Positions 11,322 to 48,120 of a stretch of 64,000 nucleotides of DNA are shown piece by piece. The notes below the pieces were generated by a model that was given only the letters and a program-made list of their open reading frames with translations, was not told where the DNA came from and made no database searches. The stretch is from positions 372,001 to 436,000 of the forward strand of contig NW_026933409.1 in assembly GCF_032062105.1 (NCBI RefSeq). The letters run 5' to 3'. The stretch is from Saccostrea cucullata. Taxonomy: Eukaryota. The number at the start of each line of letters is the position of its first letter. Position 1 is the stretch's first letter. The translations under genes were made by a program, and so were the position numbers.

Positions 11322-11945
11322 TGTGACAGATCGGGCTCGGGATGCTAGATGAATTACGTCACCCGGACTTTATCGTAGTGCGCTACGATAGCGGCCGAGG
11401 GTAGTCCGGGTGATCATCACTATATATAAGAGCGTTCTGCTGAAAGCTGGCAGTTGCCAGTTGGAGCTCACAAGTTACGGTCGGCAAAAGCGTAATTGCA
11501 AGGTACGGGATTTTAAAGGATTTAATACAGTATACGGTGGCTAGTATACTGGGTCTAAAGTATTATAGTATTTTGAGGGAATAAAGCGATAATTTACCTC
11601 ATTATAATTATTTCATCTGTCTGGGTATAAGACAGAAACCTGAAACGTACATGTCAACGACCTATCCGAGTCCCGGATCGGATACATACCTGTCCTGATA
11701 CTGGTACAGATACATCCAGGACACAGACCAGATACATGCCCATTAATTGTTGTTTATGTTAAGGATAGGAAATCCTTATAATATATGTATATATTGACTC
11801 GTTGTTTTTCATATATGCTTTGTCATTTATCATTTCAAATCATTTGTCTAATTAGTGATCTATCTCTTGTTTACATAATCATTTGTTTAATTCATTTGGT
11901 TGATTAAGGATCTATACTCAAATTCACGGACCCATACACGTTACA
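11322..11945 (+). repeat. 5' LTR (624 bp)
   Basis: tgtgacaga...cgttaca, a direct repeat of 17987-18611. TATA-like tatatataag at 11421 and AATAAA at 11580. Confidence 0.97.
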
Positions 11946-11950
11946 AAAAT

Positions 11951-11969
11951 TGGCGGCAGCGTCGGGATT
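11951..11969 (+). promoter_or_regulatory. Primer-binding site, tRNA-Leu-like
   Basis: TGGCGGCAGCGTCGGGATT lies 5 nt after the LTR and resembles the complement of the tRNA-Leu(AAG/TAG) 3' end (TGGTGGCAGCGGTGGGATT), with mismatches. Confidence 0.65.
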
Positions 11970-12031
11970 TGGGTTGGATCCGATTTGTTAATCATATTTT
12001 ATGATATTTGTTAATTTGCTTTGTTTTCACG

Positions 12032-15000
12032 ATGTCAAGTTTACATGACATAACGCTTATAGAAAGACAAATAGAAAATCTGAATAGGGAGATAGAGCAG
12101 TCTATGCGAATGATAGGTCTACAGGAAAATGCTACCAGTGTCCCAAGACGCATACAACAAACAAGGACGGGTACTCCGTTTGCAAGACGGACAGATAGGT
12201 TGCTTGATAATGCAAGTACTGAGGATGTATGCACATGTGATGAGACTGATGATAGGTCTGGAGACCGAGGACAGCATTCGGCACGTGGCACAAATACCGG
12301 TACTCATCCGGCGACAGATACAAATCAAAATCGGAATAGATCAAGGCCCAGGAATTTTATTAAACCTGCGACTTATGACGGTTCCAGTATGTGGAATGAC
12401 TATTTGTCTCACTTTGAGTCTGTTAGTCTCTTGAATGAATGGACTGAGACGGAAAAGGGGTTATATTTAGCTGCGTCTCTTAGAGTGCTAGCACAAGGTG
12501 TGCTCGGTAATCAGCCCAGGGATGAGAGACAGAACTATGGAAAATTAGTCAAATGCTTACAGGATCGGTTTGCCCCACTGAACCAGACTGAGCTGTATCG
12601 GACTCAGCTCAGGGAAAGGAGACAAAAACCATCAGAGAGTTTACCAGAGATGGGCCAAGATATACGGAGGCTTGTGAACCTAGCCTATCCTACAGCACCG
12701 GATGATGTACGTGAGATTCTTGCCACTGAACAGTTTTTAGACGGACTGCATAATGCAGAAATGCGTCTTAAGATCAAACAGTCAAGACCTAGCAGTTTTA
12801 ATGATGCTATACAAAGAGCTGTTGAGCTCGAGGCTTTTTATAAAGCAGAAAGTCGTCGCACCGAGAATGTCAGAAGCATGGATCAAGACTCGGGTCAGGG
12901 GTCAAAGATAGATAAATTCATAGAGACCATGGAGAAGAATATGCAATCTCTTCAAAGGGAGATAAAGGACATGAAACAATGGAAGTTTCAAATGCAAAGG
13001 AATGGACGCGATACAAGGCAGACAAGAGATGAAATTAAGAAAACAACAGGAAATGGTATTAGTACTCGAAGATGCTACAAATGCGGTTCTGACAAACACC
13101 TGAAAAGAGATTGTCCCATGCTTAAAGATACAACCTCTCTCCCGGAACCTAGACAGAAGATGAGAGGCATGACTGAGCATAAGTCAGATGACCGGACCCA
13201 AGCCAGAACGCAAAAGACTGATGAACACTCTAGAATTGTTCATTCTATCAAGGAAACAGGAGCTTATGTAACTGCCAAAGTATGTGGGATGGATACCTAT
13301 CTGCTCATTGACACAGGTGCCACTGTTTCCTTACTATCGAAAGTATGCTTTGAAAACATACAAGGAGACAATCATTCCTTAAAGAAAGTAGACAGGGACG
13401 TCCTGTCAGCAAATGGATCCTGTGTAGAGATATATGGTAAAACATCTATAGAACTCGTGCTAAATGGAACAACTCTGAAGCATGAGATGATAGTGGCGGA
13501 TATATCTGTAGATGGAATTCTTGGTTTAGATTTTCTTGTCAAGTATGAAGCTATCATAAATATGCGCACACACAAGGTTGAGATCTCAGGGATAGAACAT
13601 CCAATTCAGATGGAGGGTACAGCACGAGAGTACAAGATTGCTTTGGTCAATAGAATAGTTATACCTCCAAGGTCTGAAGTAATGACTGAGGGCAAGATAT
13701 GTGCAGGGCCAGATGGGGGATATCCTGTGAATATAGGGCTTGTAGAACCATCTGAAAAATTCCGAAAATCGGATTCCGCTATGATAGCCAGAACCCTGGT
13801 AAGACGCCAGGAGGCAGTGCCCCTACGAATTATGAATCTGTCATCCACGGATAAGACTCTACAGTCAGGAACTGTTGTGGGTAAATTGTCTCCAGTTTGT
13901 GAGATTGTATCATTATCGTCTTCATGCCATGATAAGAGAAGTAGCAAGGAAATGCCAAAACATTTAAAGGAATTGTTTGATAGAAGCACTAAGAATCTTG
14001 GAAGTAATGAAAAAGACAAGGCCAGAAGTTTACTTATTAAGTACTCAGATTTGTTTTCTGTGACTGATGAAGATGTTGGTCGAACCTCTATGGTTAAGCA
14101 CAAGATAGATACAGGTTCTCATCCAGCTATCAAACAGGCACCAAGACGTCTACCTTTCCATATGCAGGAAGAAGTTCAAGAGCATGTATTAGATATGCTT
14201 AAAGGAGGTATTATTGAGCCGTCCAAGAGTGATTGGTCATCAGCGATAGTCTTGGTGAAGAAGAAAGACGGATCCAAAAGGTTCTGTGTGGATTATAGGC
14301 GCCTGAATAGTGTCACCATCAAAGACGCCTATCCCCTTCCCCGGATCGACGAATCGCTTAATCAGCTGAAGGGAGCGAAGTGGTTCAGTACTCTAGACCT
14401 GAATGCTGGATACTGGCAGGTAGAGCTAAGTCCAAGCGATAAGCATAAGACGGCGTTTGCAACTAGACAAGGGTTTTACGAGTTCAATGTGATGCCGTTT
14501 GGGCTTTGTAATGCCCCAGCTACGTTTGAACGTCTTATGGAGACTGTTTTGTCAGGACTACAATGGCAGATATGCCTCATCTATTTAGATGATGTCATTG
14601 TGTATGGGAAAACATTTAACGAAATGGTACATAATTTAGAACAGGTCTTTGAGAAGTTACAGTCAGCTGGTTTGAAGCTAAAGGCAAGAAAATGTACTTT
14701 GTTTGCAAAACAAGTGAAATACCTAGGTCATGTCATTTCGGAGAATGGAGTCGAGACAGATCCAGAGAAAGTTGAATCTGTGAGGCAATGGCCAGAGCCA
14801 GTAAATAAGACTCAAGTTCGTTCCTTCCTCGGCCTCTGTAGCTATTATCGGAAATTCATTGCAAACTTTGCTGATATAGCTCGACCGCTTCATAAACTGA
14901 CAGAGGCATCAGTTGTCTTCAAATGGTCAGAGGAATGTCAAATAGCATTTGATGTCCTAAAAACCAAGTTGACCACAGCACCTATCCTTACTCATCCAGA

Positions 15001-15673
15001 CTTCAGTAAACCCTTTATATTGGATACCGATGCCAGTCAAAATGCGATCGGAGCAGCCCTGTCTCAGATCCAGAATGGGCAGGAAAGGGTAGTCGCTTAT
15101 GCCAGTAAAGTTCTTAGCAAATCAGAGAGAAGGTACTGTGTGACCAGGAAGGAGCTCCTGGCAGTAGTGACGTTTATAAAGCACTTTAGACATTTCTTGT
15201 ATGGACGTAAATTTGTGGTCAGAACAGATCACAGTTCTCTTCGATGGTTGCTAAGGTTCAAGGATCCAGAAGGCCAGTTAGCTCGATGGCTAGAGGTGAT
15301 ATCGGCATATGATATAGAGATCGAGCATAGAGCTGGTAGACTGCATGGCAATGCAGACGGGCTAAGTAGACTCCCATGCGTCCAATGCGGATATTTTGAT
15401 GATTGGGAGAAAGAAGACTTGCATGGGGGACAATCACATGCAAGGGTATTACAGGATGAGATCAAAGACAATGGGACAGATGAATCAAAAAGTCTAATAG
15501 AGATACAGGATGGAAGTCGGGATATTAGACTTGTTAAGGATTGGATGGAGGAGGGGAAGCGTCCAGACTACAGTGAAATTACTGCTGAGAGCTATATGGT
15601 CAAATCATTGTGGGCTCAGTGGAGTAGATTGGCATTGAAGGATAATTTGCTTTTCTCGCATGTGGGAGCTTGA
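12032..15673 (+). CDS. Gypsy Gag-Pol: capsid, CCHC knuckle, aspartic protease, RT, RNase H
   Basis: CYKCGSDKHLKRDC zinc knuckle; LIDTGAT protease; RT motifs RFCVDYRRLN, LDLNAGYWQ, MPFGLCNAPATF and YLDD; RNase H DTDAS..ELLAVV..TDH. Confidence 0.95.
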   Translation: MSSLHDITLIERQIENLNREIEQSMRMIGLQENATSVPRRIQQTRTGTPFARRTDRLLDNASTEDVCTCDETDDRSGDRGQHSARGTNTGTHPATDTNQNRNRSRPRNFIKPATYDGSSMWNDYLSHFESVSLLNEWTETEKGLYLAASLRVLAQGVLGNQPRDERQNYGKLVKCLQDRFAPLNQTELYRTQLRERRQKPSESLPEMGQDIRRLVNLAYPTAPDDVREILATEQFLDGLHNAEMRLKIKQSRPSSFNDAIQRAVELEAFYKAESRRTENVRSMDQDSGQGSKIDKFIETMEKNMQSLQREIKDMKQWKFQMQRNGRDTRQTRDEIKKTTGNGISTRRCYKCGSDKHLKRDCPMLKDTTSLPEPRQKMRGMTEHKSDDRTQARTQKTDEHSRIVHSIKETGAYVTAKVCGMDTYLLIDTGATVSLLSKVCFENIQGDNHSLKKVDRDVLSANGSCVEIYGKTSIELVLNGTTLKHEMIVADISVDGILGLDFLVKYEAIINMRTHKVEISGIEHPIQMEGTAREYKIALVNRIVIPPRSEVMTEGKICAGPDGGYPVNIGLVEPSEKFRKSDSAMIARTLVRRQEAVPLRIMNLSSTDKTLQSGTVVGKLSPVCEIVSLSSSCHDKRSSKEMPKHLKELFDRSTKNLGSNEKDKARSLLIKYSDLFSVTDEDVGRTSMVKHKIDTGSHPAIKQAPRRLPFHMQEEVQEHVLDMLKGGIIEPSKSDWSSAIVLVKKKDGSKRFCVDYRRLNSVTIKDAYPLPRIDESLNQLKGAKWFSTLDLNAGYWQVELSPSDKHKTAFATRQGFYEFNVMPFGLCNAPATFERLMETVLSGLQWQICLIYLDDVIVYGKTFNEMVHNLEQVFEKLQSAGLKLKARKCTLFAKQVKYLGHVISENGVETDPEKVESVRQWPEPVNKTQVRSFLGLCSYYRKFIANFADIARPLHKLTEASVVFKWSEECQIAFDVLKTKLTTAPILTHPDFSKPFILDTDASQNAIGAALSQIQNGQERVVAYASKVLSKSERRYCVTRKELLAVVTFIKHFRHFLYGRKFVVRTDHSSLRWLLRFKDPEGQLARWLEVISAYDIEIEHRAGRLHGNADGLSRLPCVQCGYFDDWEKEDLHGGQSHARVLQDEIKDNGTDESKSLIEIQDGSRDIRLVKDWMEEGKRPDYSEITAESYMVKSLWAQWSRLALKDNLLFSHVGA

Positions 15674-16988
15674 AGAAAGCAATGACACGACATATCAAAT
15701 TGTTATGCCACTCTCACAGAGAAGGTTTATTTTACAGCAGATGCATGACTCCAAAACATCTTGTCAACTAGGGGTGACCAAAACCCTGAACAAGATCAGA
15801 CAAAGTTACTACTGGCCGGGACTGCAAAGCGACGTAAGAGGTTATGTTGCTGGATGCGACATATGTGCCCGGAGGAAGCCTCCACTTAAAACAAAGCGCG
15901 GACCTATGCAACCTTTGCAAGTGGGTTACCCAATGGAAAGGATAGCCACAGATATCCTCGGGGAATTTCCGATCACAGAAAAGGGGAATCGCTACATACT
16001 TGTAGTCTCTGATTATTTCAGTAAATGGACAGAGGCCTTTCCGATGCCCAACATGGAGGCTCAGACAGTTGCGAAACTGATCGTAGAGGAAGTTATCTGT
16101 AGGTTTGGAGTTCCTGTATCCATCCATTCTGACCAAGGGCGTCAATATGAGAGCCTTTTGTTTAGCGAGGTATGCAAGCACATACAGATCCGAAAGACAA
16201 GAACCACACCATACCATCCTCAGTCTGATGGTATGGTGGAACGGTTCAATAAGACTTTAGCCACCATGCTGAGTAGTTATATTAGCGAGAATCATCGGGA
16301 TTGGGATGAGAGCATACCTTTTGTGATGATGGCATACAGGGCGGCACAGCATGAATCAACCGGATACACGCCAAACATGCTGATGCTCGGTAGAGAAACT
16401 GCCACCCCTCTGGACATCATATATGACATGCCAGCAACCTGGAAACAAGTACCGAGTCATGAATGGGTGTGGATTCTGACTGATCGAATGGAAAGGGCTC
16501 AAAATTTGGTGAGAAAACAGTTAGAAGGAGCTATCCTTCGACAGAAGCATTATCATGACATGAAGATGTCCTATGAACAATTCAAAGTTGGGGACCAGGT
16601 ATATGTCTATTTTCCCCAAAGGAAAACTGGGTGCTCACCTAAGCTCACTTCATATTGGAGAGGACCTTTTAAGGTTCTGGCAAAAGTCTCTGAGGTCCTG
16701 TATAAGGTGAATTGTGGACGCAATGGAAAGGATCAGATAATTCATTGCGACAGGATGAAAAGGTGCAGAGATCAAGTTCTTCGAAGCGAAGATCCAGACC
16801 TAGGACTCGAAAGTTCAGAGCTAGGGACAATTGATTTTTCCAATGTTCAGATAGATCAAGAGGATCAGGATGATGACTTTGGGTCATCTAACAGAAACAT
16901 TGAAGTCACGGATGAATTAGTTGGTGATCGCAGACCCAGACGCGAAAGACGTGCCCCAACTTACCTTCAAGATTATGTCCAGGACTAG
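15660..16988 (+). CDS. Gypsy integrase (continuation of pol after a 1-nt frameshift near 15655)
   Basis: HD..LG..KT..CDIC zinc-finger region, DDE core (ATDILG, HSDQG, VERFN) and a GPF motif (WRGPFKV). Confidence 0.93.
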   Translation: MWELEESNDTTYQIVMPLSQRRFILQQMHDSKTSCQLGVTKTLNKIRQSYYWPGLQSDVRGYVAGCDICARRKPPLKTKRGPMQPLQVGYPMERIATDILGEFPITEKGNRYILVVSDYFSKWTEAFPMPNMEAQTVAKLIVEEVICRFGVPVSIHSDQGRQYESLLFSEVCKHIQIRKTRTTPYHPQSDGMVERFNKTLATMLSSYISENHRDWDESIPFVMMAYRAAQHESTGYTPNMLMLGRETATPLDIIYDMPATWKQVPSHEWVWILTDRMERAQNLVRKQLEGAILRQKHYHDMKMSYEQFKVGDQVYVYFPQRKTGCSPKLTSYWRGPFKVLAKVSEVLYKVNCGRNGKDQIIHCDRMKRCRDQVLRSEDPDLGLESSELGTIDFSNVQIDQEDQDDDFGSSNRNIEVTDELVGDRRPRRERRAPTYLQDYVQD

Positions 16989-17162
16989 GACATGAATATA
17001 TGTTTTTCTTTAAGTCTTGAATTAAACTTACAAAACTATGCGTGAATTGGCTTACAGAGTACTTATAACCCTGCTATTATTTAAGTTGTTCTGCTTTTTT
17101 TCTATGAAAAATATTGATATTATTTGCATTGATGTATTGTCATGTATCTTTGTAGTGAAATC

Positions 17163-17798
17163 ATGGTTAATACAAAGGTGACGCCGAGAAAATCTAAAGA
17201 GATATGTCCAGTGTGTTTCATTGAATTGGACGGGAAAGATGCCTGGGCCGCTCATGTGTTGAAGTGTGCTAGCAGCATGTTGGTGTGTGAGAAGTGTCAT
17301 GTATCCTTTAAGAAGAAGGAATATTTGGTGAAGCACATGAAGTTGAAACATGCAGAAAATGATCATGCGTCTAAAGAGCCAGAGGATGATGAGGCAGGTC
17401 CAAGTAGTCCAGTCCAGAATAACAGCGACAGCGGGAGTGACTGGGATGAAGATCCAGGGGTACAGCTGGAGGAACCGTCCAAAGAAAATGATCCTGAACC
17501 CCCCACTAAAACCGCTAGTTTGCTGACAGGACGCATATTCAGAAAGCGGACCGCACCTAGCCCAGTACCCACTACACGGAAAGTAGTCTGCAGATCTGAA
17601 CCTGATCCAGAACCTGATGCTGAGAAGACTGTGGATAGGGGGATGCAGATCGATTCCCATGCAAACATTACAGTGGATCAGGGGACCCAGACTGCAGGTT
17701 TTAGAATGCGGGTGAAAGAGGTTACAGTCACCAAGTTTCATGATAATGGCAGAAGTGTGGAGAAAATTGTAGAAAGAGAAGAATTTTATAATATGTAA
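17163..17798 (+). CDS. Accessory ORF3 of the Gypsy element: H3-tail-like N-terminus, two zinc fingers, acidic disordered linker (211 aa from ATG 17163)
   Basis: Intact ORF between the integrase stop and the PPT. Contains CPVC-x12-HVLKC and CEKC-x12-HMKLKH fingers, a Kozak-like aatcATGG start and an upstream tttgtAG acceptor. Confidence 0.8.
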   Translation: MVNTKVTPRKSKEICPVCFIELDGKDAWAAHVLKCASSMLVCEKCHVSFKKKEYLVKHMKLKHAENDHASKEPEDDEAGPSSPVQNNSDSGSDWDEDPGVQLEEPSKENDPEPPTKTASLLTGRIFRKRTAPSPVPTTRKVVCRSEPDPEPDAEKTVDRGMQIDSHANITVDQGTQTAGFRMRVKEVTVTKFHDNGRSVEKIVEREEFYNM

Positions 17799-17972
17799 AT
17801 TTTTGATTTATGCTGTTTCCTGCGAAGTTTATAAGACAGATAGTCTTTTAAGATAATCATGGTCTTGCTTTCATTTTGCATATATCTCATGTTTTCTTCA
17901 TTAAAACATTTATCATCTTGTTACGTCATTATTTCATTATTTTCTTTTGTCATGCGAGGACGCATGAGTAAT

Positions 17973-17986
17973 AGAGGCGTGGGTAA
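17973..17986 (+). promoter_or_regulatory. Polypurine tract preceded by a short hairpin (tcatgcg-agga-cgcatga, 17950-17967)
   Basis: agaggcgtgggtaa immediately 5' of the 3' LTR. Confidence 0.65.
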
Positions 17987-18611
17987 TGTGACAGATCGGG
18001 CTCGGGATGCTAGATGAATTACGTCACCCGGACTTTATCGTAGTGCGCTACGATAGCGGCCGAGGGTAGTCCGGGTGATCATCACTATATATAAGAGCGT
18101 TCTGCTGAAAGCTGGCAGTTGCCAGTTGGAGCTCACAAGTTACGGTCGGCAAAAGCGTAATTGCAAGGTACGGGATTTTAAAGGATTTAATACAGTATAC
18201 GGTGGCTAGTATACTGGGTCTAAAGTATTATAGTATTTTGAGGGAATAAAGCGATAATTTACCTCATTATAATTATTTCATCTGTCTGGGTATAAGACAG
18301 AAACCTGAAACGTACATGTCAACGACCTATCCGAGTCCCGGATCGAGATACATACCTGTCCTGATACTGGTACAGATACATCCAGGACACAGACCAGATA
18401 CATGCCCATTAATTGTTGTTTATGTTAAGGATAGGAAATCCTTATAATATATGTATATATTGACTCGTTGTTTTTCATATATGCTTTGTCATTTATCATT
18501 TCAAATCATTTGTCTAATTAGTGATCTATCTCTTGTTTACATAATCATTTGTTTAATTCATTTGGTTGATTAAGGATCTATACTCAAATTCACGGACCCA
18601 TACACGTTACA
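17987..18611 (+). repeat. 3' LTR (625 bp)
   Basis: Identical by eye to the 5' LTR except for one inserted A (ggatcgAgatac, about 18346). Confidence 0.97.
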
Positions 18612-20245: not shown

Positions 20246-23200
20246 CCTGTTGAGGATCGTACTCGATGTCCATTGGTGGGGAGTCGTACCCTGGCCACCT
20301 CTCTAGCTGACCCCTGTCATTCTCCAATAAGAGATCACCTTGCCTAGTAAACTGTGGCTCATACTGCCCCTGCATTGAGGGTTTATCACCTGAGTATCTT
20401 GATGTGCAGTCTCTTTGACATGGTGTTCTGTAGCTGCTGAGTTGTACTGGAGCTTTATGTATACCATCTTGTTCAACTCCTTGTCTTTGCTTCAAAGTTA
20501 ACCCTAAAGTACTGGACTGTCCAAAGTCTGAATCAATAGAGTAGTTCGTGTTACTTGGTATTCTGCCCTCTGCATTGTTGTAAGGAGTTGTGTTTTGCCT
20601 CAGCTGTACTTGACTTCTTAAAATCTGGGAGTTTGACGAGGCAGAAAGAGGACCATCTTTAGTTGTCACATGATCTTAAAAATTAAAAAATCTTAAAAAT
20701 AAAAATTTTGATCAATTACACTGACCAAACAAATTATCAGGTTAAATTTGTTTTTTACAGTTTTAAGGATACTGTAGTTTCCTAAAAAAATTAACTCTTC
20801 AGGAACAGTGCTCTCAAAAATCCATGCTTCTATAATTTGGCATCTATATGTTATTTTACTGTTACAGTATTTTAAAATATTCAAAAGTTAAAGGAAAAAA
20901 AAAATATATAGAATGTATTCACTGCAGATTAAACAGAACATTAATTGTACTATTTCTTTACTCCCTTACCTGTATTCTGTGGCTGTCGTAGGGGTCTTGC
21001 CAGTCCTATGCTGACTCTTCTTGGTCCGGACCTTGGGAATATTTTGTCATTTGATGATAAGCTTGCCTGCTTTAGTAACTGTCGAGTTGTAGCAATGAGA
21101 CTGTCCCTAAAATTCCCACCAATTGTGTGATAACCTTTATCATCCAATGGACCACTTCCTTTATTTGTTTGGAAAGTATCCTCTGTTGCATGTTTATTGA
21201 ATTCATCTGAAGAATGAAAACTCTGTGACGCCTGACCACTAGTATGGGTATTAAAAGTGTGTAAGTTATTATGTCTGCATGCATTGGTAGAATTTAAACC
21301 ATGCTGATTTCTAAGAAATAAGTTCCTTTGGATATCGTCATCAAAGTTGACACTCCAATCATCTGTCCTCAGGTTGTCAGATACTTGGTTAATCTGAGAG
21401 TAAGGTTGCTCATTTTCTAGGGTTTCCCTTCCAAAGAAGAAATTTTCTTCATTTCGATTCTGCACAATTGAGTCACTTGATCTTTCCCTTGGAGTCAGAT
21501 CATCTTGGAACCAATTTACTTCAGAATTAGAGGACTGTTCTGCAAGACTTTTTCCCATGACATTTCCTTTTTTGAATAGGTAAGACATATCTACATCAGT
21601 TGGTCCACATAATTCAGATAAATACCCTCCTGGACGGCATCCTTCCATTTGCTCCTTGGCTTGTCCATCAACAGTTCTACTGAAGTCCTCCAAACAGCAG
21701 CTTACCTCCTCCTGGACTCCTCTTTGCACATTTCTTACAAAATCAGTCCCAGAGTAATTGCTGGGAGGGGAGAATGTAGAAATAAGACCAGAATCTTTCT
21801 CTACATTTGGGACTGACTCGTGACAATAATCAGACATGTGTTTGAGAGTCCCACCATCTTGCTCATTGGGAAGGATTTTTTCATGGGATGTAAAGGATTC
21901 CTCTTTAGCATGTGTTGATGGGGAATGGGGAATTTCCTGACTAATTTCTTTCTCCAATACATTGCTCTCTACATTTAATTTCTCTAAACCTTGATAAAAC
22001 ATCTACATGGAGGAAAGAAAAAAAAAATTTTTAATAGCAACAGATGAAAAATTTATTAAGTTACGAAATATTTCCTTCTCATATGTGATCAAAAGTTTGG
22101 AAGAAGAAGAAAAATTTCTCAACAATAACCAATTGATTTCTTTCTGTTACATACAATAAACCTCTCTGCCTGATAATTTTTTTTTTTCTGACCTGAATGA
22201 TTCTCTTTGGAACATCAGGAAAGAGTCTGCAAAGTTGATCTGGGTGAAGGTCCAGGATAGATTGTAGGTCAAGAATCTGAAGCAACTTCTGAGCTCTGCA
22301 AAAAAATAATGGACATGTTATTGTATAAGTGGAAATTTTACCAAGACACATATTTAGCGACTGGTCCTTAAAAATTAGTATTTTATTTTTATCAAGATGT
22401 ATTTTAGCAAATTTAAAATGCTCACTAAAAGATACTATTACAAATAAAACACAATTAATTTTTAGCGGTATTCAATTTTAGCAATATTGGCATCCTCGCT
22501 AATAATGCCAAAATCCTCACTAAAAATTCTCACTAAATCCTCACTAACAAGATGTGTTTGTGAAACACTATGCCCCCGGTGGTAACACAATTTTTGAGTT
22601 GGGCAGTCTGGTATTTTTTTTTTGTAAAAGTAGGTCAAACTCCAAGGTCAAGAGGTCAAATATGGTGGTACCCAGAAGAAAGGTCTTATTACAAGAATTA
22701 CACCTGTGAAATATAAAAGCACTACTTTTAACTGTTCAAAAGTTATGACCGAGGTTAATGTTTTTAAGAAGTGGGTCAAACTCCTACGTCAAGGTCAAAA
22801 GGTCAAAAATATTTCTACCGTCTGAAAGGTCTTGTCAAAATAAATATACATGTGAAGGATGAAAGCCCTAACTTCAACTATTTAAAAGTTATGGCCAAGG
22901 TTAAACTCTGGTATTTTTTTGTAAAAGTAGGTCAATCTCCCAGGTCAAGGTCAAGAGGTCAAATTTGGTGGTACCCAAAGAAAGGTCATGTCACAAGTAA
23001 CACACCTATGAATTATGAAAGCCATAGCCCCAACCACTCAATAGTTATGGGCTAGGTTAAAGTTGGGGGACAAACAAACAGACAGACAGACAGACAGACG
23101 GACAGACAGACATGTTCCGGGGGCATAAAAATTCTGCTAATATGGTATGTACTATAAAGATACAATGGTTGTCTACCAATTGATCAGCCATTTGATAGGT

Positions 23201-26200
23201 ATGGTTCAATACAACATTTGGTTTCAAAATTATTACAAAATCAACTTCATACTATGATCTTTAATAAAACAAGAAAAAATGAAAAACATCATTTTAATGA
23301 ATACACAATTGTTATATTTAAATAAAAAATACCGATTTCATGCATTCGAAAAGTGTATATGAAATGAAAAACATAAATACATACAAAATAGGATTGATAC
23401 AAGGTATACTTGTCAAAAACTGTTCCTCCTGAAGAGATGTTCATCAAATACAAAAGTTATTTATACATTGGCATATCAAATATTGCATGTTTTTAGACAA
23501 ATCCACAAGCAATTACACACATTCATTTCTCTTTTCCAAATCTACAGGTCATCTTAATTCAAACATAGTTTATTGGTAGTCATGTGTGCATAAGGAAGGT
23601 ACAGACTGAACTCTCAGTGTATGATGTCTGAATTTGGTCTTGTTGCTATAGGATGAACACACGTACCTGTGATGGAGAGGCAGACATCCAGTTCTGGTCA
23701 TCTGATGACAGGACCATCTGACAAAACCTGGCCACAATCTCAGCTGTCATAGGGAGACTGTTACTAGCCATCACCTGTACATGAAGGCACTACTGACTAC
23801 ACAGTCAAACAACACATCCTCCCACTAGTTGATACATGCACTAACAATCAGACAAATCTATTGCTCAACAACATATCCCCTTCTCATCAATAGACCACTC
23901 TAGCTTTGGCATACTGTGCCAACAGGACCTACTTTCACTGTCTGAACAAATATACTGTAGATATAAATATATACCTTATACTGTAGATCAGCTACTTGAG
24001 AGACAGCTTGTCGCAAAAAGAAATTGAACTTTTGTTGATGTTGCCTTAATTTTAATCTGTAAAAGATTAAATTTCTTCTACAATAAATATGGAAATTTAT
24101 TTAATCATATTTGAATAACTGTAGCAAAATGAGCAAAAAAAAAAAAATGTTTCTCATAAAAATCTTCTGATACTTATAAACATTTTCTCATCACTTATAT
24201 AGAAGTAACTAAGCCCAGTATCATATGAGAACATACTAAATGTAAAAGTGCTTACTTCTATTGTTTTTTTAACTCTACATTAATACACTTTATGCTTTGA
24301 TGATTTATCAGTTTTAAAAGTAATTGATTACCAATACTAGTAAAAATTGATTAATAATAGAAACAAGAGGCCCATGGGCCTTATAGGTCACCTGAGTATC
24401 ATGCGACAACTTTCCAACAATTGAATTTGATTCATGTTTTAAACTAGAGGCCATGAAATTCATAATTTTGAAAGAGGCAACCATTGCTTATCATAATTAT
24501 ACACTCAGCATGCTTATTTTGGTTACTTAATACCCAGAAGTACCAGTAGATCAGAGTAACAAAGAGAAAATGCATTTCCACTTTTAGTGAATTTCAGGGC
24601 CCCTGGGTCAGGGCTTCTTGCATTGGGGCAGGTCCACATTTGAGCTCCCCATCCCACAGGAACCACTGACCCTGGGGCCACATCTTTCAAAATTTTGGAA
24701 TTTTTTTTAAAATTTTATTTCATCATGCTGTTGATTAATACCAAAGTGCAGATTTCAAAGCATTAAATTATTTCAAACTTTTTACCTCCCTCCCCCAAAG
24801 TACCTCTGTCCCAGGGGCCAGGAAATTAACCATTTTTGGAAGAAGGAGGTTTTTTTGTCATAAATATATACTAAGATCATTGGCATCATACCAAACAACA
24901 TAGGAAAAGAATTCATGCATTTTCACTATATAAACATTAGAGCCCCACCCTAACACAAAAAGCCCTAACCCAGGGACCCTGAAATTCAAAAATCTCAAAG
25001 AGGCATCCTTCCTCCTCATAACTATGTACATAGCTCAGGTGCTGAAAAGAAGAGTTATAAAGAATTTATGCATTTTCACTATATAATCAATAAAGCCCCG
25101 CCCTAACACCAGAACCCCCCATGAAATTCACAATTTTGGAAGAGGTAGCCTTCTTCAACATAACTATGTACTTGGTTAGTTTATTTAATACTCAGGAGCA
25201 AAGAAGAAGATTTTCAAAGAAATAATTCATTTTTACTATATAACCTATATAGCCCCGCCCTAGCACTAGAACCCCTGACCCTGGGACAATAAAATTCACA
25301 ATTTGAAAAGAGGCAGTCTTATTCAACATAACTATGCACTTGGTTAATTTATTTAATGCCCACAAACAGAAAAGAAGAATTTCAAAGAATTTAGGCGTTT
25401 TCACTATATAATCTACATAGCCCCACCCTAGCACTAGAACCCCTGACCCTGGGGCCATGAAATTCACAATTTTGGAAAACACAGTCATTTTCAACTTACC
25501 TATGCACTTGGTTAGTTTATTTAATGCCCAGGAGCAGAAAAGAAGAATTTCAAAGAAATAATGCATTTTCACTATATACATGTAACCTGTTAAGCCCCGC
25601 CCTAGCACTAGAACCCCTGACCCTGGGGCCATGAAATTCACAATTTTGGAAAACACAGTCATTTTCAACTTACCTATGCACTTGGTTAGTTTATTTAATG
25701 CCCAGGAGCAGAAAAAAAGATTTTTGGTAGAGGACTCAATGCTGATTACAATCATACCAACAGTTTGACTGCTTGATGTCCAGGAGTAAAGAAGAAGATT
25801 TTTAAAGATTGCACTAATTTTAGTGGTTTTTGCCCCACCCCCCAGGCCCCAGGGGGACAGGGACCATGAAATTCAAAATTTTTGTTCCCCCTCACCCATA
25901 GATGCTATATGCCAAATTTGGTTGAAATTGGTTCTGTGGTTTCAGAGAAGAAGCTAAAAATGTTCAAATGTTAACGCACGACGAACGATGCACGACGACA
26001 GACGAAAACAGATAGCAATAGGTCACCTGAGTTTACTCAGGTGACCTAAAAATATAAACTGTAATGAAATTTGTTTCATTAGTTCCAACAACAGACTTAC
26101 TGAGGCTGATTAAAGTTCTGGGTGCTGGCAATGATAAGAGTGTCTCGGAATTGTTGAGACAGGAAGGATAACTCTGACAGCAGAGTGGAAAAGTCCATAC

Positions 26201-27351
26201 CAACCACAGACACATCATACATGACCACACAAGTTACTTCATCTATCATAATGTAAGGGAGGGTCAGCCCCACCCCAGGGCTTCTGAAGATACAGGTCAC
26301 ACCATACCTAGTTAAACAAAGACAAAACATATAACATAATACAAAATTACTTTGAAATTAGGTTTGCACAGATTTACTTCCCCTTGTCTTACATTTAAAT
26401 AAAACTTACTTAGATTCTAAAAGGTGAACCAAGCCCTCTGGTACTGTGTTAGAACACATGATTGTCATGTTCACTTTTGGAATACTTTTACCTACAAAAC
26501 AATTAAATTAGGCAGTTGACACTGATTACAAAAGACCAAAAATAACAAAACAAAGAGATTTCAATTTGGACAATTAAGATATCGTTTTCTATTTCATTGT
26601 TTTAACATGTACATACTTTGTAAGGACATTGTTGTGTTTAAAAACTAGCTCAATATTATGGGCAAAAAAATTAAACTGCAGACCAGAAGGTTACACATAA
26701 TAGATCTCCCTCCCACTTATTTTGGATATAAACAAGAGGCCCACGGGCCTTATAGGTCACCTGAGTATTGTGTAACAACTTTCAAACAATTAAATTAGAG
26801 GCCATAAAATTCACAATTTACAATTTTGAAAGAGGCACCATTGCTTATCATAATTATTAACTTAGCATGCTTACTCTATTTACTTAATACCCAGAGGTAG
26901 ATCAGAGAAAAAAAGAGAAAATGCACTTCCACTTTATAACCAGTTGTGCATCTCACCCCAAAGTAACCACTGACCCAGGGCCATATATTTCAAAATTTTG
27001 CAAATTTTATCATAAAATGGTTGATAAATACCAAAGAGCAGATTTCAAAGCATTAATTTATTTTCAGGCTATGTAACCCCCCCCCCCCCCTTTTGACCCT
27101 GGGGGCATTAAAAACCACTTTGCTAGATGCACCTTTCTTCATCATAAATATATATATACTTGGATCATTGGCTTAAAACCCAGAAGCAAAGAAAAATATT
27201 TACAAAGAGTAAATGCATTTTTACTATATAATCAATACAGCCCCGACTTAACACCAGAACCCCTGACCCGCCATAAAATTCACAATTTTGGAAGAGGCGC
27301 TCTTGCTCATCATAACTATGTGCTTAGTTAGTTAATCTGATACCCAGGAGC

Positions 27352-27385
<34 letters not shown>

Positions 27386-27519
27386 CACTATATAATCTAT
27401 AGAGCCCCACCCTAACACCAGAACTCCTGACCCTGGGGCCATAAAATTCATAATTTTGGAAGAGGCACTATTGCTCATCATAACTATGTGCTTATTTAGT
27501 GTATTTAATACCCAGGAGC

Positions 27520-27553
<34 letters not shown>

Positions 27554-27688
27554 CACTATATTATCTATAGAGCCCCGCCCTAACACCAGAACCCCTGACC
27601 CTGGGGGCCATAAAATTCACAAATCTGGAAGAGGCACTCTTGCTCATCATAACTATGTGCTTAGTTAGTTTATCTAATACCCAGGAGC

Positions 27689-27722
<34 letters not shown>

Positions 27723-28024
27723 CACTATATAATCTATAGAGCCCCGACTTAACACCAGAACCCCTGACCCTGGGGCCATAAAATTCACAGTTTTGGAAGA
27801 GGCACTCTTGCTCATCATAACTATGTGCTTATTTAGTGTATTTAATACCCAGGAGCACAGAAGAGGATTTTCAAAGAAATAATGCATTTTCACTATATTA
27901 TCTATAGAGCCCCGCCCTAACACCAGACCCCCTGACCCTGGGGCCATAAAATTCACAATTTTGGAAGAGGCACTCTTGCTCATCATAACTATGTGCTTAG
28001 TTAGTGTATTTAATACCCAGGAGC

Positions 28025-28058
<34 letters not shown>

Positions 28059-28177
28059 CACTATATAATCTACAGAACCCCGCCCTAACACCAGAAACAT
28101 AAAATTCACAAATCTGGAAGAGGCACTCTTGCTCATCATAACTATGTGCTTAGTTAGTTTATCTAATACCCAGGAGC

Positions 28178-28211
<34 letters not shown>

Positions 28212-28345
28212 CACTACATAATCTATAGAGCCCCGCCCTAACACCAGAACCCCTGACCCTGGGGCCATAAAATTCACAATTTTGGAAGAGGCACTCTTGC
28301 TCATCATAACTATGTGCTTAGTTAGTGTATTTAATACCCAGGAGC

Positions 28346-28379
<34 letters not shown>

Positions 28380-31300
28380 CACTATATTATCTATAGAGCC
28401 CTGCCCTAGCACTAGAACCCCTGACCCTGGGGCCATGAATGGTAGAGGACTCAATGCTCATTACATTCATGCCAATAGTTTGCCTGCTTGATGTCCAGGA
28501 GTAAAGAAGAAGATTTTTAAGGATTTCATTAATTTTAGTGGTTTTGGCCCCACCCCTCAGGCCCCAGGGGGGCGGGGACCATGAAATTCATAACTTTTGT
28601 TCCCCTCCACCCACAGATGCTGTATACCAAATTTGGTTGAAATTACTTCAGTGGTTTCAGAGAAGAAGCTGAAAATGTTCAAATGTTAACACACGACACA
28701 CGACGGACGACGACGGACGAAAACGGATAGCAATAGGTCACCTGAGTTACTCAGGTGACCTAAAAATGAAATCAATATTTCAGATAGAATTAGCAAAATT
28801 AAGAAGCAATGACTCAGTGTGCTTTTCTGCCAAATTTGGAAGTGAATAAACAAATGTGTCATACCTCTTTTTCTGTTCAAGTTTGAGCTTTAATGATGCA
28901 AAGCTCATGGAATAAAAAAAAACACTGAAAATCTAAATGATTCTTGTTGTCCTATGTGCAGACCCCCCCCCCCCGATCCATTGAAGAACTGATATTTTTT
29001 GTCATTAACCACTTAACATTTTAGAGCTCGATTGAACCAAATGTTCACATGAAATGCATTTTTACTTACATGCACCTGTCCTGGCAGCTATTGGGGTATA
29101 TGAGAAGTGTATGTATTTGATATTTTGTCTCTGACACAGCTGTAAGAATCTGTCTCCTTCATACTCTATAATCAGGGAGAACTGGGACCAGGGGAAGTCA
29201 GAACCAATACGATCCTGGTGTAACAACATGCAGTTACAATGGTCAAGACTGAAATTCAACAACATAGAGTTACAATGAACAAAACTGAAATTCAACAACA
29301 TACAGTTACAATGGTTTAGACGAAAATGGTTGTGCCTCAGTTGCAAATGACAATGGTTCTCTTGGGGTAAAAATTGATAATGTTACAAATTAATTTACTT
29401 CAGATTAACTATATGCTAAGGAAGCTTGAATGATTTCAAATTGAGTACCAAAAAATCATGTAGATTTTGATTTTTTTTATTTGATTTTAATTAAATGAAA
29501 ACTGATTACTCAAGTGCATAAAAATACAAAAAAAAAATTCAGAATTTGATGTCTTCAGAGGATCCCTTAATATATTATAGATCTTTATGGTACTCACTTG
29601 TCTAGTATACCCTGACAGTCCCCTGTGTTCTGCACACAAACCTTGACTTTGACCACTCTCTGTAAATTCAGCTCCAGAGTGCTAAACAAACTGTCCAAAT
29701 CTTTACTCAAAATCACCAGTATCTGAAAAACAATTCAAATTACTTGGGAACACTCTTTATCATATATTATGAAATTAATTACATTGTTGAAATCTTGACT
29801 CAAATTCACTGGGAAATGCAACAGCAAAGATCACATCATTGGATCCAAGGCTTTTTTCATGATCACAAATTATGATGTTAAACAAACAAATGAAAGCAAT
29901 ATTCCTAGATACTGATTACTTATTTAATTACATTTCCATTAATTCACCCAGTCTGATACATGTATAAATTAATGATCAATACCTTAGTGTGACTTAGTCT
30001 CTCTGTATCTTTTCCTGTCAGCTTCTTATGGACAGACAGACAGACATGGTAAATCTTAGGATGCAGGATTCTCTCCTGGTCATACCTCAGCTTCACAGAA
30101 AACAGTCTCTGTCTGAGGGTCTCTAAACAGCCTGTAATAAAGTGTATTGTCAACCATTCTCTGTGCTCAACATATTCCATGACTATACATCTCATAAAAT
30201 TGTAAAGAACTAGGACTTCTTTTTTTTTTTAAAAAAAACAAAACAAAACAGAAAAAAAAAAACGCTCATCCCACAAGGAGAATGGTAATAATATGGATAC
30301 AAAAATAACAATTAAATTGCTGTGAGGCATAATTTTCTTCATCAACTCAAATTATTTCCTGACCTTTAAGACAGTTTTTGTACTTTTCTTGTATGATAGA
30401 CAACAGTTCCAGACAGGACTCAAGACAAGCCACTCCAAGCATCTCCACAGCACAACACAGTGTATGTAATGCCAGGCAGGAACGGTACCTTTCTTCATCT
30501 GTAACAAAGAGAATGAGAGAGGTAATTCAGCTTTTTCTAGAGCTCTAAAATAACTATTCAATACTTTTTAATAATTTCTGTTTCAAACACAATAAACATC
30601 ACTATGCATGTAACTTTCAAGGTACCCACACTATTTACATGTTCTGATTATGATTGTGCTTTCAATAAAACTAATACTAGAATGACAAAGATAATGACAG
30701 TGTGGTTTCTGTGGCTGACTGGTGACCTCCTTGACTAGGTATCTTGTGGCGTCAGGGGTCAGTGAGGTGAAGGACACGGATTTGTCAAGGTCACCACTGT
30801 TCACCAAGGCCATGATGAAAAAGGAGGCATATTCAGCAATCAGATTGGCAACTTGTTCATATTCTCCTAAAAATAAGATACTGTGTTAGCACTAGTGAAC
30901 ATAAACATGAAACTAATCAATTTTTGTGTATCTAATGCATAGAAAAATCTGCTTATTAGGCCATAATAAATAAATTGCTTATTTTTAAAAACATTTATAT
31001 TTTTTATTTTTTCATTTTATTTTTTATATTCCACTTGAATAAAGTCATAGTAAAAATATTTACCATATATTACAGTAATTGCTGTCAAAATCATGTCGAC
31101 TCGCGGGATTTACGAAAGTAGAATGGTAGATGTAGTCGATCAGAATTAAGACGAAGAAAAACAGAAATAAAAAAAATTTAAAATTGGAGAGAATCTAGGA
31201 ATATTTTTATTATGGCCTTAATAAAAACATTTATAATTCACAATATTCCACTTGCATAATTTATAAGAAATATTTACCTTCTAATTGGTAATCTATACAT

Positions 31301-46870: not shown

Positions 46871-48120
46871 TCAATGCCGATCTCCTCGTCTGAAGTTTGT
46901 ATAGCTTCTACAAAAATCAGTTTATACATTACTAGTGTTATAACAGACAACAGGTTTAGTATCACAAGCAATTGGGTACTATTAAAGTGATTCTAAATGT
47001 AGAATAATTTGCAATCTGTCTTTTCAATTAACTACAGACTTACTGCAAACACAGTCTTATCAAAAACCAGTCATCATCTGCACTGACCAAAAATAAAGTA
47101 AATACTGATTTTAAAATTTGACATTCTAATACTGAACCTCCTGGGAGGGGAGTGTTGTGAGGACACTTCTATCTGCTCCTCTTCCTCCTCTTCTGAATCC
47201 TCCTCCTCATCACTTCCCCCGTACAGCTCCTCTCTCAGGCTCCTCAGAATTTCGTCCTCATCCCCATCCAGGTCAAGATCATTGTCCGACAGAATTTCTT
47301 TTTGCAGCAAAGATACATATTTAAGATTTAAAGATTCACAAAAGTTGAAAAAAATAATCTATGTATATCTTTAAAACAGGGATTTGGTCAAGCTTGAAAA
47401 ACATACGGAAAGAAATATTTATCAATTACCTTGAACTTGGCGTGAATTTACATTATGGCTCTTTTTGCATCGTCTTCCAAACTTGCAGGTGCCCTTAACA
47501 TAAAATTCACACAGGTGAAGATAAGAGCAGTCCTCTCTCTCGCAGACTCGGCGGTTGTAGTAATAACAGAGCTTTAATGGTACGTGGTCCTTCGTGGAGG
47601 AGGTGACGCTCTGTGTCTTATTCCCGGTCTCTTCCTTTATTATTTTCTTGATGGTCGGTAGGTCCATAAACTGAAGATGATGGTGCTGCAGCACTTTCCT
47701 ATTGTGCTTGGTACTCAGTGTATGCGGATAGGGACAGGGTTTTCTAGTTTTTTTCTTCGTATGAATGCAGTTGTCCAGCATAAAGTATTTACAGATGTGG
47801 AGATCCTTGCATTGCGGAAAACCAGGACAGTTCCTCACATTGTCACAGACGTCGATGTTGAGGTGAAGTGAAACATCCGGGTCCTCTTGTGACCCTTTAA
47901 GACTGAAGGATTCCGAGTAGCCCTGTAGTATCTTCTGAAGTGTGAGCGGTTTTAGCTGGAGATACCTACAATGGGGGTCGTTTTTGATAGCCATCGTCAG
48001 TTCAGATAGTGTCAAACATTTCTCACTACCCAGGATTCTTTCAGTTGTCTCTTTGATGAACTGAGAGAATGACATAGGGGTAGGCGGAGGCCCACCTGCT
48101 TCACGTTTCAGGTATGCCAT
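46871..48120 (-). CDS. ZAP/PARP12-like CCCH zinc-finger protein (exons 47430-48120, about 47138-47297, about 46871-46907)
   Basis: N-terminal HTH-like region followed by C-x5-C-x5-CKDLHICKYFMLDNC-x9-CPYPH and LCYYYN..C..C.YLHLCEFYVKGTCKFGRRCKKSH, the paired CCCH pattern of ZC3HAV1/PARP12. Acidic tail. The 3' exon structure is less certain. Confidence 0.8.

What the first reader, a model, noticed from the sequence alone, without database searches (positions are those of the whole stretch)
17163..17798. Retrotransposon accessory protein with a histone H3-tail mimic fused to zinc fingers
Seen in sequence: ORF3 starts M-VNTKVTPRKSKE. After removal of Met (expected before Val) it is in exact register with histone H3 ARTKQTARKS, with T3, K4, T6, R8, K9 and S10 identical (6 of 10, including both major methyl-lysines and the phospho-switch residues). 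It is followed directly by a C2HC and a C2H2 zinc finger, an acidic stretch (DDEAGPSSP..SDSGSDWDED), a basic RKRTAPSP motif (NLS, or loosely like H3K27 RKSAP) and a short beta-rich C-terminus. There is no signal peptide or TM segment, so it is not Env. Established: H3K9 methylation silences LTR elements, and viral histone mimics exist (influenza NS1 ARSK). Inference: a nucleic-acid-targeted chromatin decoy or anti-silencing factor, or an integration-targeting factor, encoded by a Gypsy element. Caveat: A1/R2/A7 are V/N/P, and short basic motifs can arise by chance.
Basis: partly seen in the sequence, partly recalled or inferred. Interest (0 to 1): 0.88.

Follow-up and report, generated by a model that had tools for sequence, protein, structure and literature searches.

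The report
Bivalve retrotransposon protein with histone-like tail
A group of jumping genes in oysters and scallops carries an extra, dispensable zinc-finger gene whose first residues have kept a histone H3-like pattern across very divergent families, which likely lets the element hook or distract host chromatin proteins, though no binding has been tested.

Summary
Real and conserved, but K4-centred rather than K9-centred. The ORF (17163-17798) is the third gene of a young Gypsy LTR element (11322-18611). ORF3 family representatives in this genome are about 28% identical, yet across 18 families they start M-[PAV]-[NKL]-T-K-x-T: K4 18/18, T3 17/18, T6 17/18, K9 16/18, with synonymous codons varying; within-family dN/dS is 0.10-0.50. 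Spacing to the Met is fixed while spacing to the first zinc finger varies. Scallop homologues keep the motif. R2 (0/18), A7 (0/18) and S10 (2/18) are not kept, so it fails the H3TM and SNAG definitions and an H3K9 decoy is unlikely. New here: a predicted splice acceptor before the ATG in 18/18 families; LC8-type xQT motifs (model 0.80 vs control 0.18); an invariant RKxTxP motif; and ORF3-less sister elements, repeatedly deleted, that still transposed. Best reading: a spliced, LC8-dimerised, trans-acting nuclear accessory factor whose tail likely engages an H3K4-end reader to keep the element active. Partner, direction of effect, splicing and expression are untested; RNA reads were uninformative.

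The parts
11322..11945 (+). 5' LTR (TG...CA), preceded by target-site duplication ATAG
11423..11429 (+). TATA-like box in the LTR (predicted)
   Evidence: sequence
11500..11508 (+). Predicted splice donor (GT at 11503) in the LTR; no ATG between TATA and donor
   Evidence: similar site 73-100 nt after a TATA in 11 of 15 families; no RNA junction seen
11951..11968 (+). Primer-binding site
   Evidence: position just after the 5' LTR, shared motif in most families
12032..15673 (+). gag-protease-RT-RNase H frame (ends early; this copy's pol is split by a frameshift)
   Evidence: sister copies have one open frame of about 1659 aa
15660..16988 (+). Integrase part of pol
   Evidence: Pfam Integrase_H2C2, rve, Integrase_p58_C
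17144..17155 (+). Predicted splice acceptor (pyrimidine tract + TAG) 7 nt before the ORF3 ATG
   Evidence: acceptor before the ORF3 ATG in 18 of 18 families vs 224 of 2075 control ATGs
17163..17798 (+). ORF3, 211 aa accessory protein
17166..17195 (+). H3(1-10)-like N-terminal tail; T3, K4, T6, K9 conserved, R2/A7/S10 not
17205..17267 (+). Zinc finger 1 (C2HC)
17286..17351 (+). Zinc finger 2 (C2H2, classical recognition helix, basic at -1 and +6 in most families)
17439..17459 (+). Conserved acidic DWxxDPG motif, partner unknown
   Evidence: W, D, P, G each 13 of 15 families
17529..17558 (+). GRxxRKxTxP motif (R, K, T, P invariant); NLS, kinase site or chromatin contact, unresolved
   Evidence: 15 of 15 families
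17670..17696 (+). Predicted LC8 (dynein light chain) binding motif with TQT anchor; a weaker candidate at 17628-17654
17703..17792 (+). C-terminal beta hairpin
   Evidence: AlphaFold2 strands 181-194 and 197-210, pLDDT 64-83
17973..17986 (+). Purine-rich tract before the 3' LTR
   Evidence: sequence
17987..18611 (+). 3' LTR, followed by ATAG

Best explanation
ORF3 is a conserved but dispensable accessory gene of a bivalve Gypsy group, predicted to be made from a spliced RNA, whose product likely uses an H3-like free N-terminus (x-x-T-K-x-T) to engage a host protein that reads the K4 end of histone H3, and so would help keep the element's chromatin active. Shown: the gene, its place, its conservation, purifying selection and its repeated loss. 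Inferred: splicing from an LTR donor makes ATG 17163 the start; the Met is removed because residue 2 is Pro, Ala or Val; the zinc fingers dock the protein on DNA, most simply the element's own LTR; LC8 binds the TQT motif and pairs two chains, presenting two tails; the tail occupies an Arg2-independent reader of unmethylated H3K4 in the silencing machinery (a DNMT3 ADD-type pocket is my first guess). Acting in trans, it can be lost by individual copies.
For: Tail conservation in 18 G000 families: K4 18/18, T3 17/18, T6 17/18, K9 16/18, position 1 always P/A/V; all four Thr codons and both Lys codons in use. In 42 database homologues T3 42, K4 41, T6 41. In a 15-family alignment (median identity 28%) only the zinc ligands, the tail, RKxTxP and one gap-region Pro reach 14-15 of 15. 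Met-to-TK is fixed while Met-to-first-Cys runs 13-21. All 7 ORF3s found by integrase rather than ORF3 search carry the motif. Scallop homologues start MVKTKTTPRK; oyster P0008 matches H3 at 8 of 10. H3 1-10 is the best H3 window for 20 of 21 family tails and scores 20.0 against them; 1 of 286,080 internal 10-mers and 0 of 140 N-termini of control zinc-finger proteins score as high. dN/dS 0.10-0.50 in 12 families; pooled pN/pS 0.22 for the tail. Acceptor 18/18 vs 10.8% of control ATGs; the named database models of this family are 211 aa, and P0002 starts at MVNTK although the fetched copies have an upstream in-frame ATG. xQT in the last 40% in 14 of 15 families, 18 vs 1 occurrence; LC8 complex score 0.80, best control 0.18, interface on residues 168-179, runs agree in >=85% of contacts, partner pLDDT >=48; that mark was reached by 51 of 78 solved and 2 of 108 mismatched pairs, and LC8-TQT complexes are solved, so the pass may be from memory. 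Precedents: N-terminal H3 mimics on zinc-finger proteins (PMC8166343, PMC5066116); ADD binding needs a free N-terminus and unmodified T3 and K4 (PMC2910041, passages).
Against: No binding, modification or expression data. RNA runs gave 11, 9 and 7 reads on the element, none on ORF3, no splice joint. Arg2, which the published H3-mimic definition and SNAG require, is absent in 18 of 18 families, 42 of 42 homologues and the further set; position 5 is mostly hydrophobic or Thr, not Gln; position 7 is often Pro. Basic N-termini arise by chance: one control protein starts MAKTKTS while its relatives do not. That ADD pockets tolerate loss of Arg2 is recalled, not checked (my one search on a reader of that kind returned nothing). 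The direction of effect (activation or repression) and the DNA target are guesses. A pure trans-acting factor does not easily explain why ORF3 stays under selection in the copies that carry it.
Confidence: 0.45

Rival explanations
1. The tail is a functional N-terminal motif but not a histone mimic: a ligand for some other beta-strand-binding partner, an import signal, a CDK-type T-P-x-K site, or a co-opted remnant of a TGEKP zinc-finger linker.
For: No Arg2, no Gln5; T-P-x-K-like ending common (P7 11/18, K9 16/18); HMMER aligns the tail to the linker of CTCF fingers; a control protein begins MAKTKTS by chance.
Against: Pro7 is missing in 7 of 18 families while T6 stays; T3 is not explained by an NLS, CDK site or linker; the motif is tied to the Met and not to the finger; match to H3 is in exact terminal register.
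Confidence: 0.25
2. The tail is a real H3 mimic but works as a SNAG-like hook that brings a repressor complex to the element or to host genes (self-limitation or host gene control) rather than as anti-silencing.
For: Architecture equals that of SNAG and NuRD-binding zinc-finger repressors (PMC5066116, PMC8166343); Pro1 and a hydrophobic residue 5 are frequent; ORF3-less lineages thrive.
Against: SNAG needs Arg at H3 position 2 and Phe at 4 (PMC5066116, passage); ORF3 has neither. Selection inside replicating lineages fits a benefit to the element more simply.
Confidence: 0.12
3. Rev/CERV-like regulator: a product of the spliced RNA that helps export or stabilise the unspliced genomic RNA, the fingers binding RNA and the tail serving import.
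For: Same gene logic as Cer1 CERV, a spliced nuclear Cys-rich protein needed for gRNA export (PMC10309623, abstract and section 9); predicted donor in the LTR means genomic RNA must escape splicing.
Against: ORF3-less lineages kept transposing, and one group of six copies has no ORF3-bearing sister closer than about 72% in my sample; they also lost the acceptor, however, so may no longer need it. No sequence or fold likeness to CERV was found or tested directly; finger 2 looks like a DNA-binding finger.
Confidence: 0.1
4. H3K9 decoy or particle-borne integration-targeting factor.
For: K9 16/18 and R8 11/18; a particle-borne role would explain selection in cis; LC8 motif.
Against: A7 0/18, S10 2/18, R8+K9 10/18; need of HP1-type readers for A-R-K-S is recalled and the ARKS/ARKT pattern is cited in PMC8166343; ORF3-less copies integrate.
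Confidence: 0.08

Closest known systems
H3 N-terminal mimicry proteins, H3TMs (VRK1, PCLAF, HIVEP1, BCL11B; PMC8166343)
   Same: Small residue after a removable Met, Lys at position 4, often on zinc-finger or chromatin proteins; P, V or A at position 1.
   Different: H3TMs are defined by Arg2, which ORF3 never has; ORF3 keeps T3, T6 and mostly K9 instead; host genes, not mobile-element genes.
SNAG-domain zinc-finger factors (SNAI1, GFI1, INSM1; PMC5066116)
   Same: H3-like N-terminus on a C2H2 protein, used as a hook for a chromatin enzyme.
   Different: SNAG has Arg2 and Phe4 and binds LSD1; ORF3 has Lys4, two fingers right behind the tail, and no shown partner.
VANC proteins of Arabidopsis VANDAL elements (PMC6719617)
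   Same: Element-encoded accessory protein proposed to act in trans on its own family's chromatin.
   Different: VANC is from plant DNA transposons, has shown anti-silencing activity and no histone-like tail is mentioned in the passages read; no homology was tested or is implied.
CERV of C. elegans Cer1 (PMC10309623)
   Same: Spliced, Cys-rich, non-Env accessory protein of an animal LTR retrotransposon.
   Different: CERV is 517 aa, shares exons with gag, has folded domains and is required for gRNA export; ORF3 is a mostly disordered 211-aa protein 3' of pol and is repeatedly lost.
Viral histone mimics (influenza NS1 ARSK; PMC8166343 introduction)
   Same: Parasite protein with an H3K4-like motif.
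   Different: NS1's motif is C-terminal; ORF3's is at the true N-terminus and joined to zinc fingers.
LC8 clients ASCIZ and Panoramix (PMC5963919, PMC7861614; search listing and start of abstract only)
   Same: Disordered nuclear proteins with TQT motifs dimerised by LC8; ASCIZ is a zinc-finger transcription factor.
   Different: Host factors (Panoramix silences transposons); ORF3 has 1-3 anchors and is element-encoded.

Membership tests
Ty3/Gypsy LTR retrotransposon | LTRs, TSD, PBS, and PR-RT-RH-INT order | tested here: met
Named Gypsy clade (C-clade, MolGy1-16 of PMC6238403) | RT/RNase H placement with reference elements | not tested
   No reference sequences were held; passages read mention no extra ORF
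Env-type ORF3 | Signal peptide, transmembrane anchor, env family match | tested here: not met
   Only zinc-finger Pfam hits; model has no membrane helix; no dedicated predictor run
H3TM | Met followed by a small residue that allows Met removal | tested here: met
   P/A/V in 18 of 18 families; 40 of 42 homologues P/A/V/T; removal itself inferred
H3TM | Arg at position 2 | tested here: not met
   0 of 18 families, 0 of 42 homologues
H3TM | Lys at position 4 | tested here: met
   18 of 18; 41 of 42
H3TM | Binds H3K4 readers or NuRD; methylated by K4 enzymes | not testable with these tools
   needs peptide assays
SNAG domain | P-R-S-F...R-K N-terminus binding LSD1 | tested here: not met
   no Arg2, no Phe4 (requirement from PMC5066116)
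H3K9 mimic (ARKS/ARKT type) | A-R-K-S/T around the lysine | tested here: not met
   A7 0 of 18, S10 2 of 18 families; full ARKS only in P0008 among those listed
LC8 client | TQT-type anchor with Asp at -4 in a disordered region | tested here: met
LC8 client | Physical binding to LC8 | tested here: inconclusive
   model only: 0.80 vs best control 0.18, may be from memory of solved complexes
VANC-like anti-silencing factor | Sequence-specific loss of silencing at cognate elements when expressed in trans | not testable with these tools
   definition from PMC6719617
Rev/CERV-like export factor | Made from spliced RNA and required for genomic RNA export | tested here: inconclusive
   splice signals predicted, not seen in RNA; dispensable in cis

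The most novel reading that the evidence does not exclude
A widespread bivalve Gypsy group encodes a dedicated histone-H3-tail mimic: an LC8-dimerised zinc-finger protein that shows two K4-type tails lacking Arg2, docks on its own LTRs and disarms a specific H3K4me0-reading silencer, acting as a shared good that ORF3-less cheater copies exploit. It would be the first histone mimic encoded by an animal retrotransposon that my searches could find.
Probability: 0.35. Interest if true: 0.9.

Novelty: new variant of a known kind. Interest (0 to 1): 0.76.

Why it matters
Clear element-encoded counter-silencing proteins are few and, in the review read (PMC6719617), the best case is from plants. A small, conserved accessory protein in an animal LTR element, with four short invariant motifs and natural with/without pairs in the same families, makes the question directly testable with peptides and reporter assays. 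The strict T3-K4-T6 pattern without Arg2 is a fingerprint that should point to which host chromatin protein these elements need to handle. The genes are also hiding in oyster annotations as 'RE1-silencing transcription factor-like' or 'Pegasus-like' host genes.

Tried and rejected
RNA: 4 of 24 listed runs laid; three raw RNA runs gave 11, 9 and 7 reads, none on ORF3, no joint; the contig run covers the element evenly and may be DNA: no evidence for or against splicing or expression. Spliced retrocopies: the one copy with the LTR close to ORF3 (L033) keeps the acceptor tract, so it is a deletion. HMMER over 1.84 billion representatives was swamped by poly-zinc-finger proteins (9 of the best 150 were ORF3-like); the other 141 were used as controls. 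Foldseek on the model: no PDB match at E<=0.001, only weak zinc-finger rows, TAX1BP1 UBZ at E 0.079 not taken as evidence. ESM Atlas: only unnamed or generic C2H2 clusters; nothing usable for residues 85-211. RKxTxP as a second H3 mimic: best H3 windows score 9-10.5 over 12 residues, no clear register; rejected. Host protein P0071 as the source of the tail: its relatives start differently; rejected. ORF3 versus integrase distance over all pairs is uncorrelated (rho 0.08, p 0.33), though 13 of 17 nearest neighbours agree. Antisense ORF 17052-17741: no Pfam hit, taken as a shadow frame. Literature searches for a described case listed none; one search returned nothing; Repbase entries and subscription papers are outside the library, and no supplements were read. 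Earlier scan notes: none. Scripts stopped on errors after printing part of their output; the rest was rerun.

Full report
1. Observation. The stretch 17163-17798 is an open frame of 211 aa beginning MVNTKVTPRKSKE. It lies between the integrase stop (16988) and the 3' LTR of a complete Gypsy element at 11322-18611 whose LTRs are identical over 624 aligned bases with one gap and are flanked by ATAG, so the insertion is recent. Against the host's own H3 the tail matches 6 of 10 positions, as reported. The closest named proteins are from oysters, so the host is taken to be an oyster.

2. It is a family. A search of the own genome gave 120 matches (150 of 238 candidates scored). I fetched 90 of these with flanks: most show integrase and RT just upstream, and the few without are internally deleted elements; 70 of the 90 have a repeat shared up- and downstream. 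71 long frames fell into 17 clusters at 75% identity. Fifteen intact representatives have a median identity of 28%. Named homologues come from Saccostrea, Ostrea and Magallana oysters and two scallops; many others are unnamed. ORF3 and integrase share the same nearest neighbour in 13 of 17 families; deeper distances are uncorrelated.

3. The tail. In 18 family representatives (three of them truncated copies; one singleton, L031, with a variant start was left out), H3 numbering: position 1 P8/A6/V4; 2 N8/K8/L2; T3 17; K4 18; 5 V/T/I/F/L; T6 17; 7 P11, A0; R8 11; K9 16; S10 2. In 42 database homologues, which are not independent: T3 42, K4 41, T6 41, R2 0, S10 4; one mis-started model accounts for the K4 and T6 misses. 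Codons at T3, K4 and T6 vary synonymously, so the constraint is on the protein and not on splice or start signals. The distance from Met to T-K is fixed, from Met to the first Cys it is 13-21. Ascertainment was checked: of 40 elements picked by integrase, the 7 with ORF3 all start M-[PVA]-x-T-K-x-T. Null: H3 1-10 scores 20.0 against 21 family tails; 1 of 286,080 internal 10-mers and 0 of 140 N-termini from control zinc-finger proteins do as well; the best control N-terminus (13.3) is MAKTKTS, not kept by its relatives. These controls are long zinc-finger proteins, not a whole proteome. Within-family dN/dS is 0.10-0.50 in 12 families (0.16 in this one); pooled pN/pS is 0.22 for the tail, 0.12 for the fingers, 0.35 for the rest.

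4. The start. An in-frame ATG lies 21 nt upstream in this family only. A pyrimidine tract plus YAG lies within 22 nt before the ORF3 ATG in 18 of 18 families, against 224 of 2075 internal ATGs and 6 of 115 spacer ATGs. A donor-like site lies 73-100 nt after a TATA-like box in 11 of 15 LTRs (counted by eye, with some choice among TATA candidates; background 35 of 291 30-nt windows), with no ATG in the predicted first exon of the window copy. The named database models of this family are 211 aa long. Direct evidence is lacking: three RNA runs gave 27 reads on the element, none on ORF3.

5. The rest of the protein. AlphaFold2 gives two confident fingers, a long disordered middle and a terminal hairpin. 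Finger 2 has a classical helix with basic residues at -1 and +6 and variable +2/+3; PDB sequence matches are DNA-binding fingers. DWxxDPG (13 of 15) and R-K-x-T-x-P (15 of 15) are conserved with no known partner. An xQT anchor occurs in the last 40% in 14 of 15 families (18 occurrences against 1 in the first 60%); the window's VDQGTQT fits the LC8 rules in PMC6607443 (passages). Host LC8 with ORF3 150-211 scored 0.80 against a best control of 0.18, contacts on residues 168-179, run agreement >=85%, partner pLDDT >=48; the mark was reached by 51 of 78 solved and 2 of 108 mismatched pairs (eukaryotes 39 of 65 and 2 of 126), and like complexes are solved, so this shows likeness, not binding.

6. 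ORF3 is dispensable in cis. Of the 150 best integrase matches about 51 lie next to an ORF3 match (counted by eye). I fetched 45 of the others: 7 have ORF3, 38 do not. On an integrase tree of 58 rows, copies with and without ORF3 are sisters within many families; well-supported branches force at least 12 changes. 25 of the 38 align to an ORF3-bearing relative on both sides of a 650-1150 nt gap that removes ORF3 and spares the LTR, with several distinct breakpoints, some on short shared sequence; 12 show no second block and 1 is unclear. Copies sharing a breakpoint differ by up to 15% and their similarity ends at the LTR in all pairs but one, so ORF3-less forms kept transposing. The sample was chosen to be ORF3-poor, so it gives no genome-wide ratio.

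7. How it most likely works. A short non-coding LTR exon is predicted to be spliced to ORF3; Met removal would expose a free amine three residues before K4; fingers would bind DNA; LC8 would pair two chains; the tails would occupy a reader of the H3 tip. Known readers of this kind need a free N-terminus and unmodified T3 and K4 (DNMT3A ADD, PMC2910041 passages), and zinc-finger proteins with N-terminal H3 mimics are established (PMC8166343, first 10,000 characters and passages; PMC5066116 passages). The absence of Arg2, one transition away from the common Lys2, suggests a partner that does not want it; which readers qualify is from recall and unverified. I put real H3-tip mimicry at about 0.6 and an activating or anti-silencing outcome at 0.45 overall. 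Rivals: a non-histone motif (0.25), a repressor hook (0.12), CERV-like RNA export (0.10; PMC10309623 abstract and section 9), K9 decoy or integration targeting (0.08).

8. Against what is known. It works like a SNAG or H3TM hook and, if anti-silencing, like VANC (PMC6719617 passages), but it is a member of none: Arg2 is missing and no homology was found. It is not Env. Searches of the paper library listed no description of this ORF or of a retrotransposon-encoded histone mimic; the mollusc LTR survey PMC6238403 has no hit for 'ORF' or 'zinc' in its main text. Repbase and closed journals were not searchable. Verdict: real, conserved, apparently undescribed; new variant of a known kind; interest 0.76.

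Noticed in passing
L128-L172 (G000 elements chosen by integrase): ORF3-less sister lineages in many families, pol followed almost directly by the purine tract and LTR; several independent breakpoints, some on short shared sequence as expected from template switching.
   Followed up: yes
window 15660-15673: The window copy's pol is split over two frames, whereas sister copies have a single gag-pol frame of about 1659 aa.
   Followed up: partly
window 16930-16985: Integrase ends in an arginine-rich R..R.R..P..L.DY motif kept in most families; likeness to nucleosome-binding motifs of CENP-C or foamy-virus Gag is recalled, untested.
   Followed up: no
L033; L052, L054, L068, L080, L090, L103, L109: The opposite deletion also exists: copies that keep LTRs and ORF3 but lost RT and integrase (L033 has ORF3 118 nt after the 5' LTR).
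   Followed up: partly
P0018, P0020-P0022, P0030, P0150, P0160: ORF3 copies are annotated in oyster records as 'RE1-silencing transcription factor-like' or 'zinc finger protein Pegasus-like' host genes.
   Followed up: no
P0071: An unnamed 2245-aa poly-zinc-finger protein starts MAKTKTS before a C2HC finger; its relatives start differently.
   Followed up: yes
window 47422-48120 (-): 232-aa ORF with PARP12-like tandem CCCH zinc fingers, probably an exon of a host gene.
   Followed up: no
window 24655-28739: Two arrays of a 168-bp satellite-like repeat; other dispersed and inverted repeats at 0.2-4.2 kb, 40.8-43.8 kb, 49.3-49.9 kb and 57.7-58.4 kb.
   Followed up: no
window 20950-22002 (-) and 31261-32451 (-): ORFs of 350 and 396 aa with no Pfam match at E<=0.1.
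   Followed up: no
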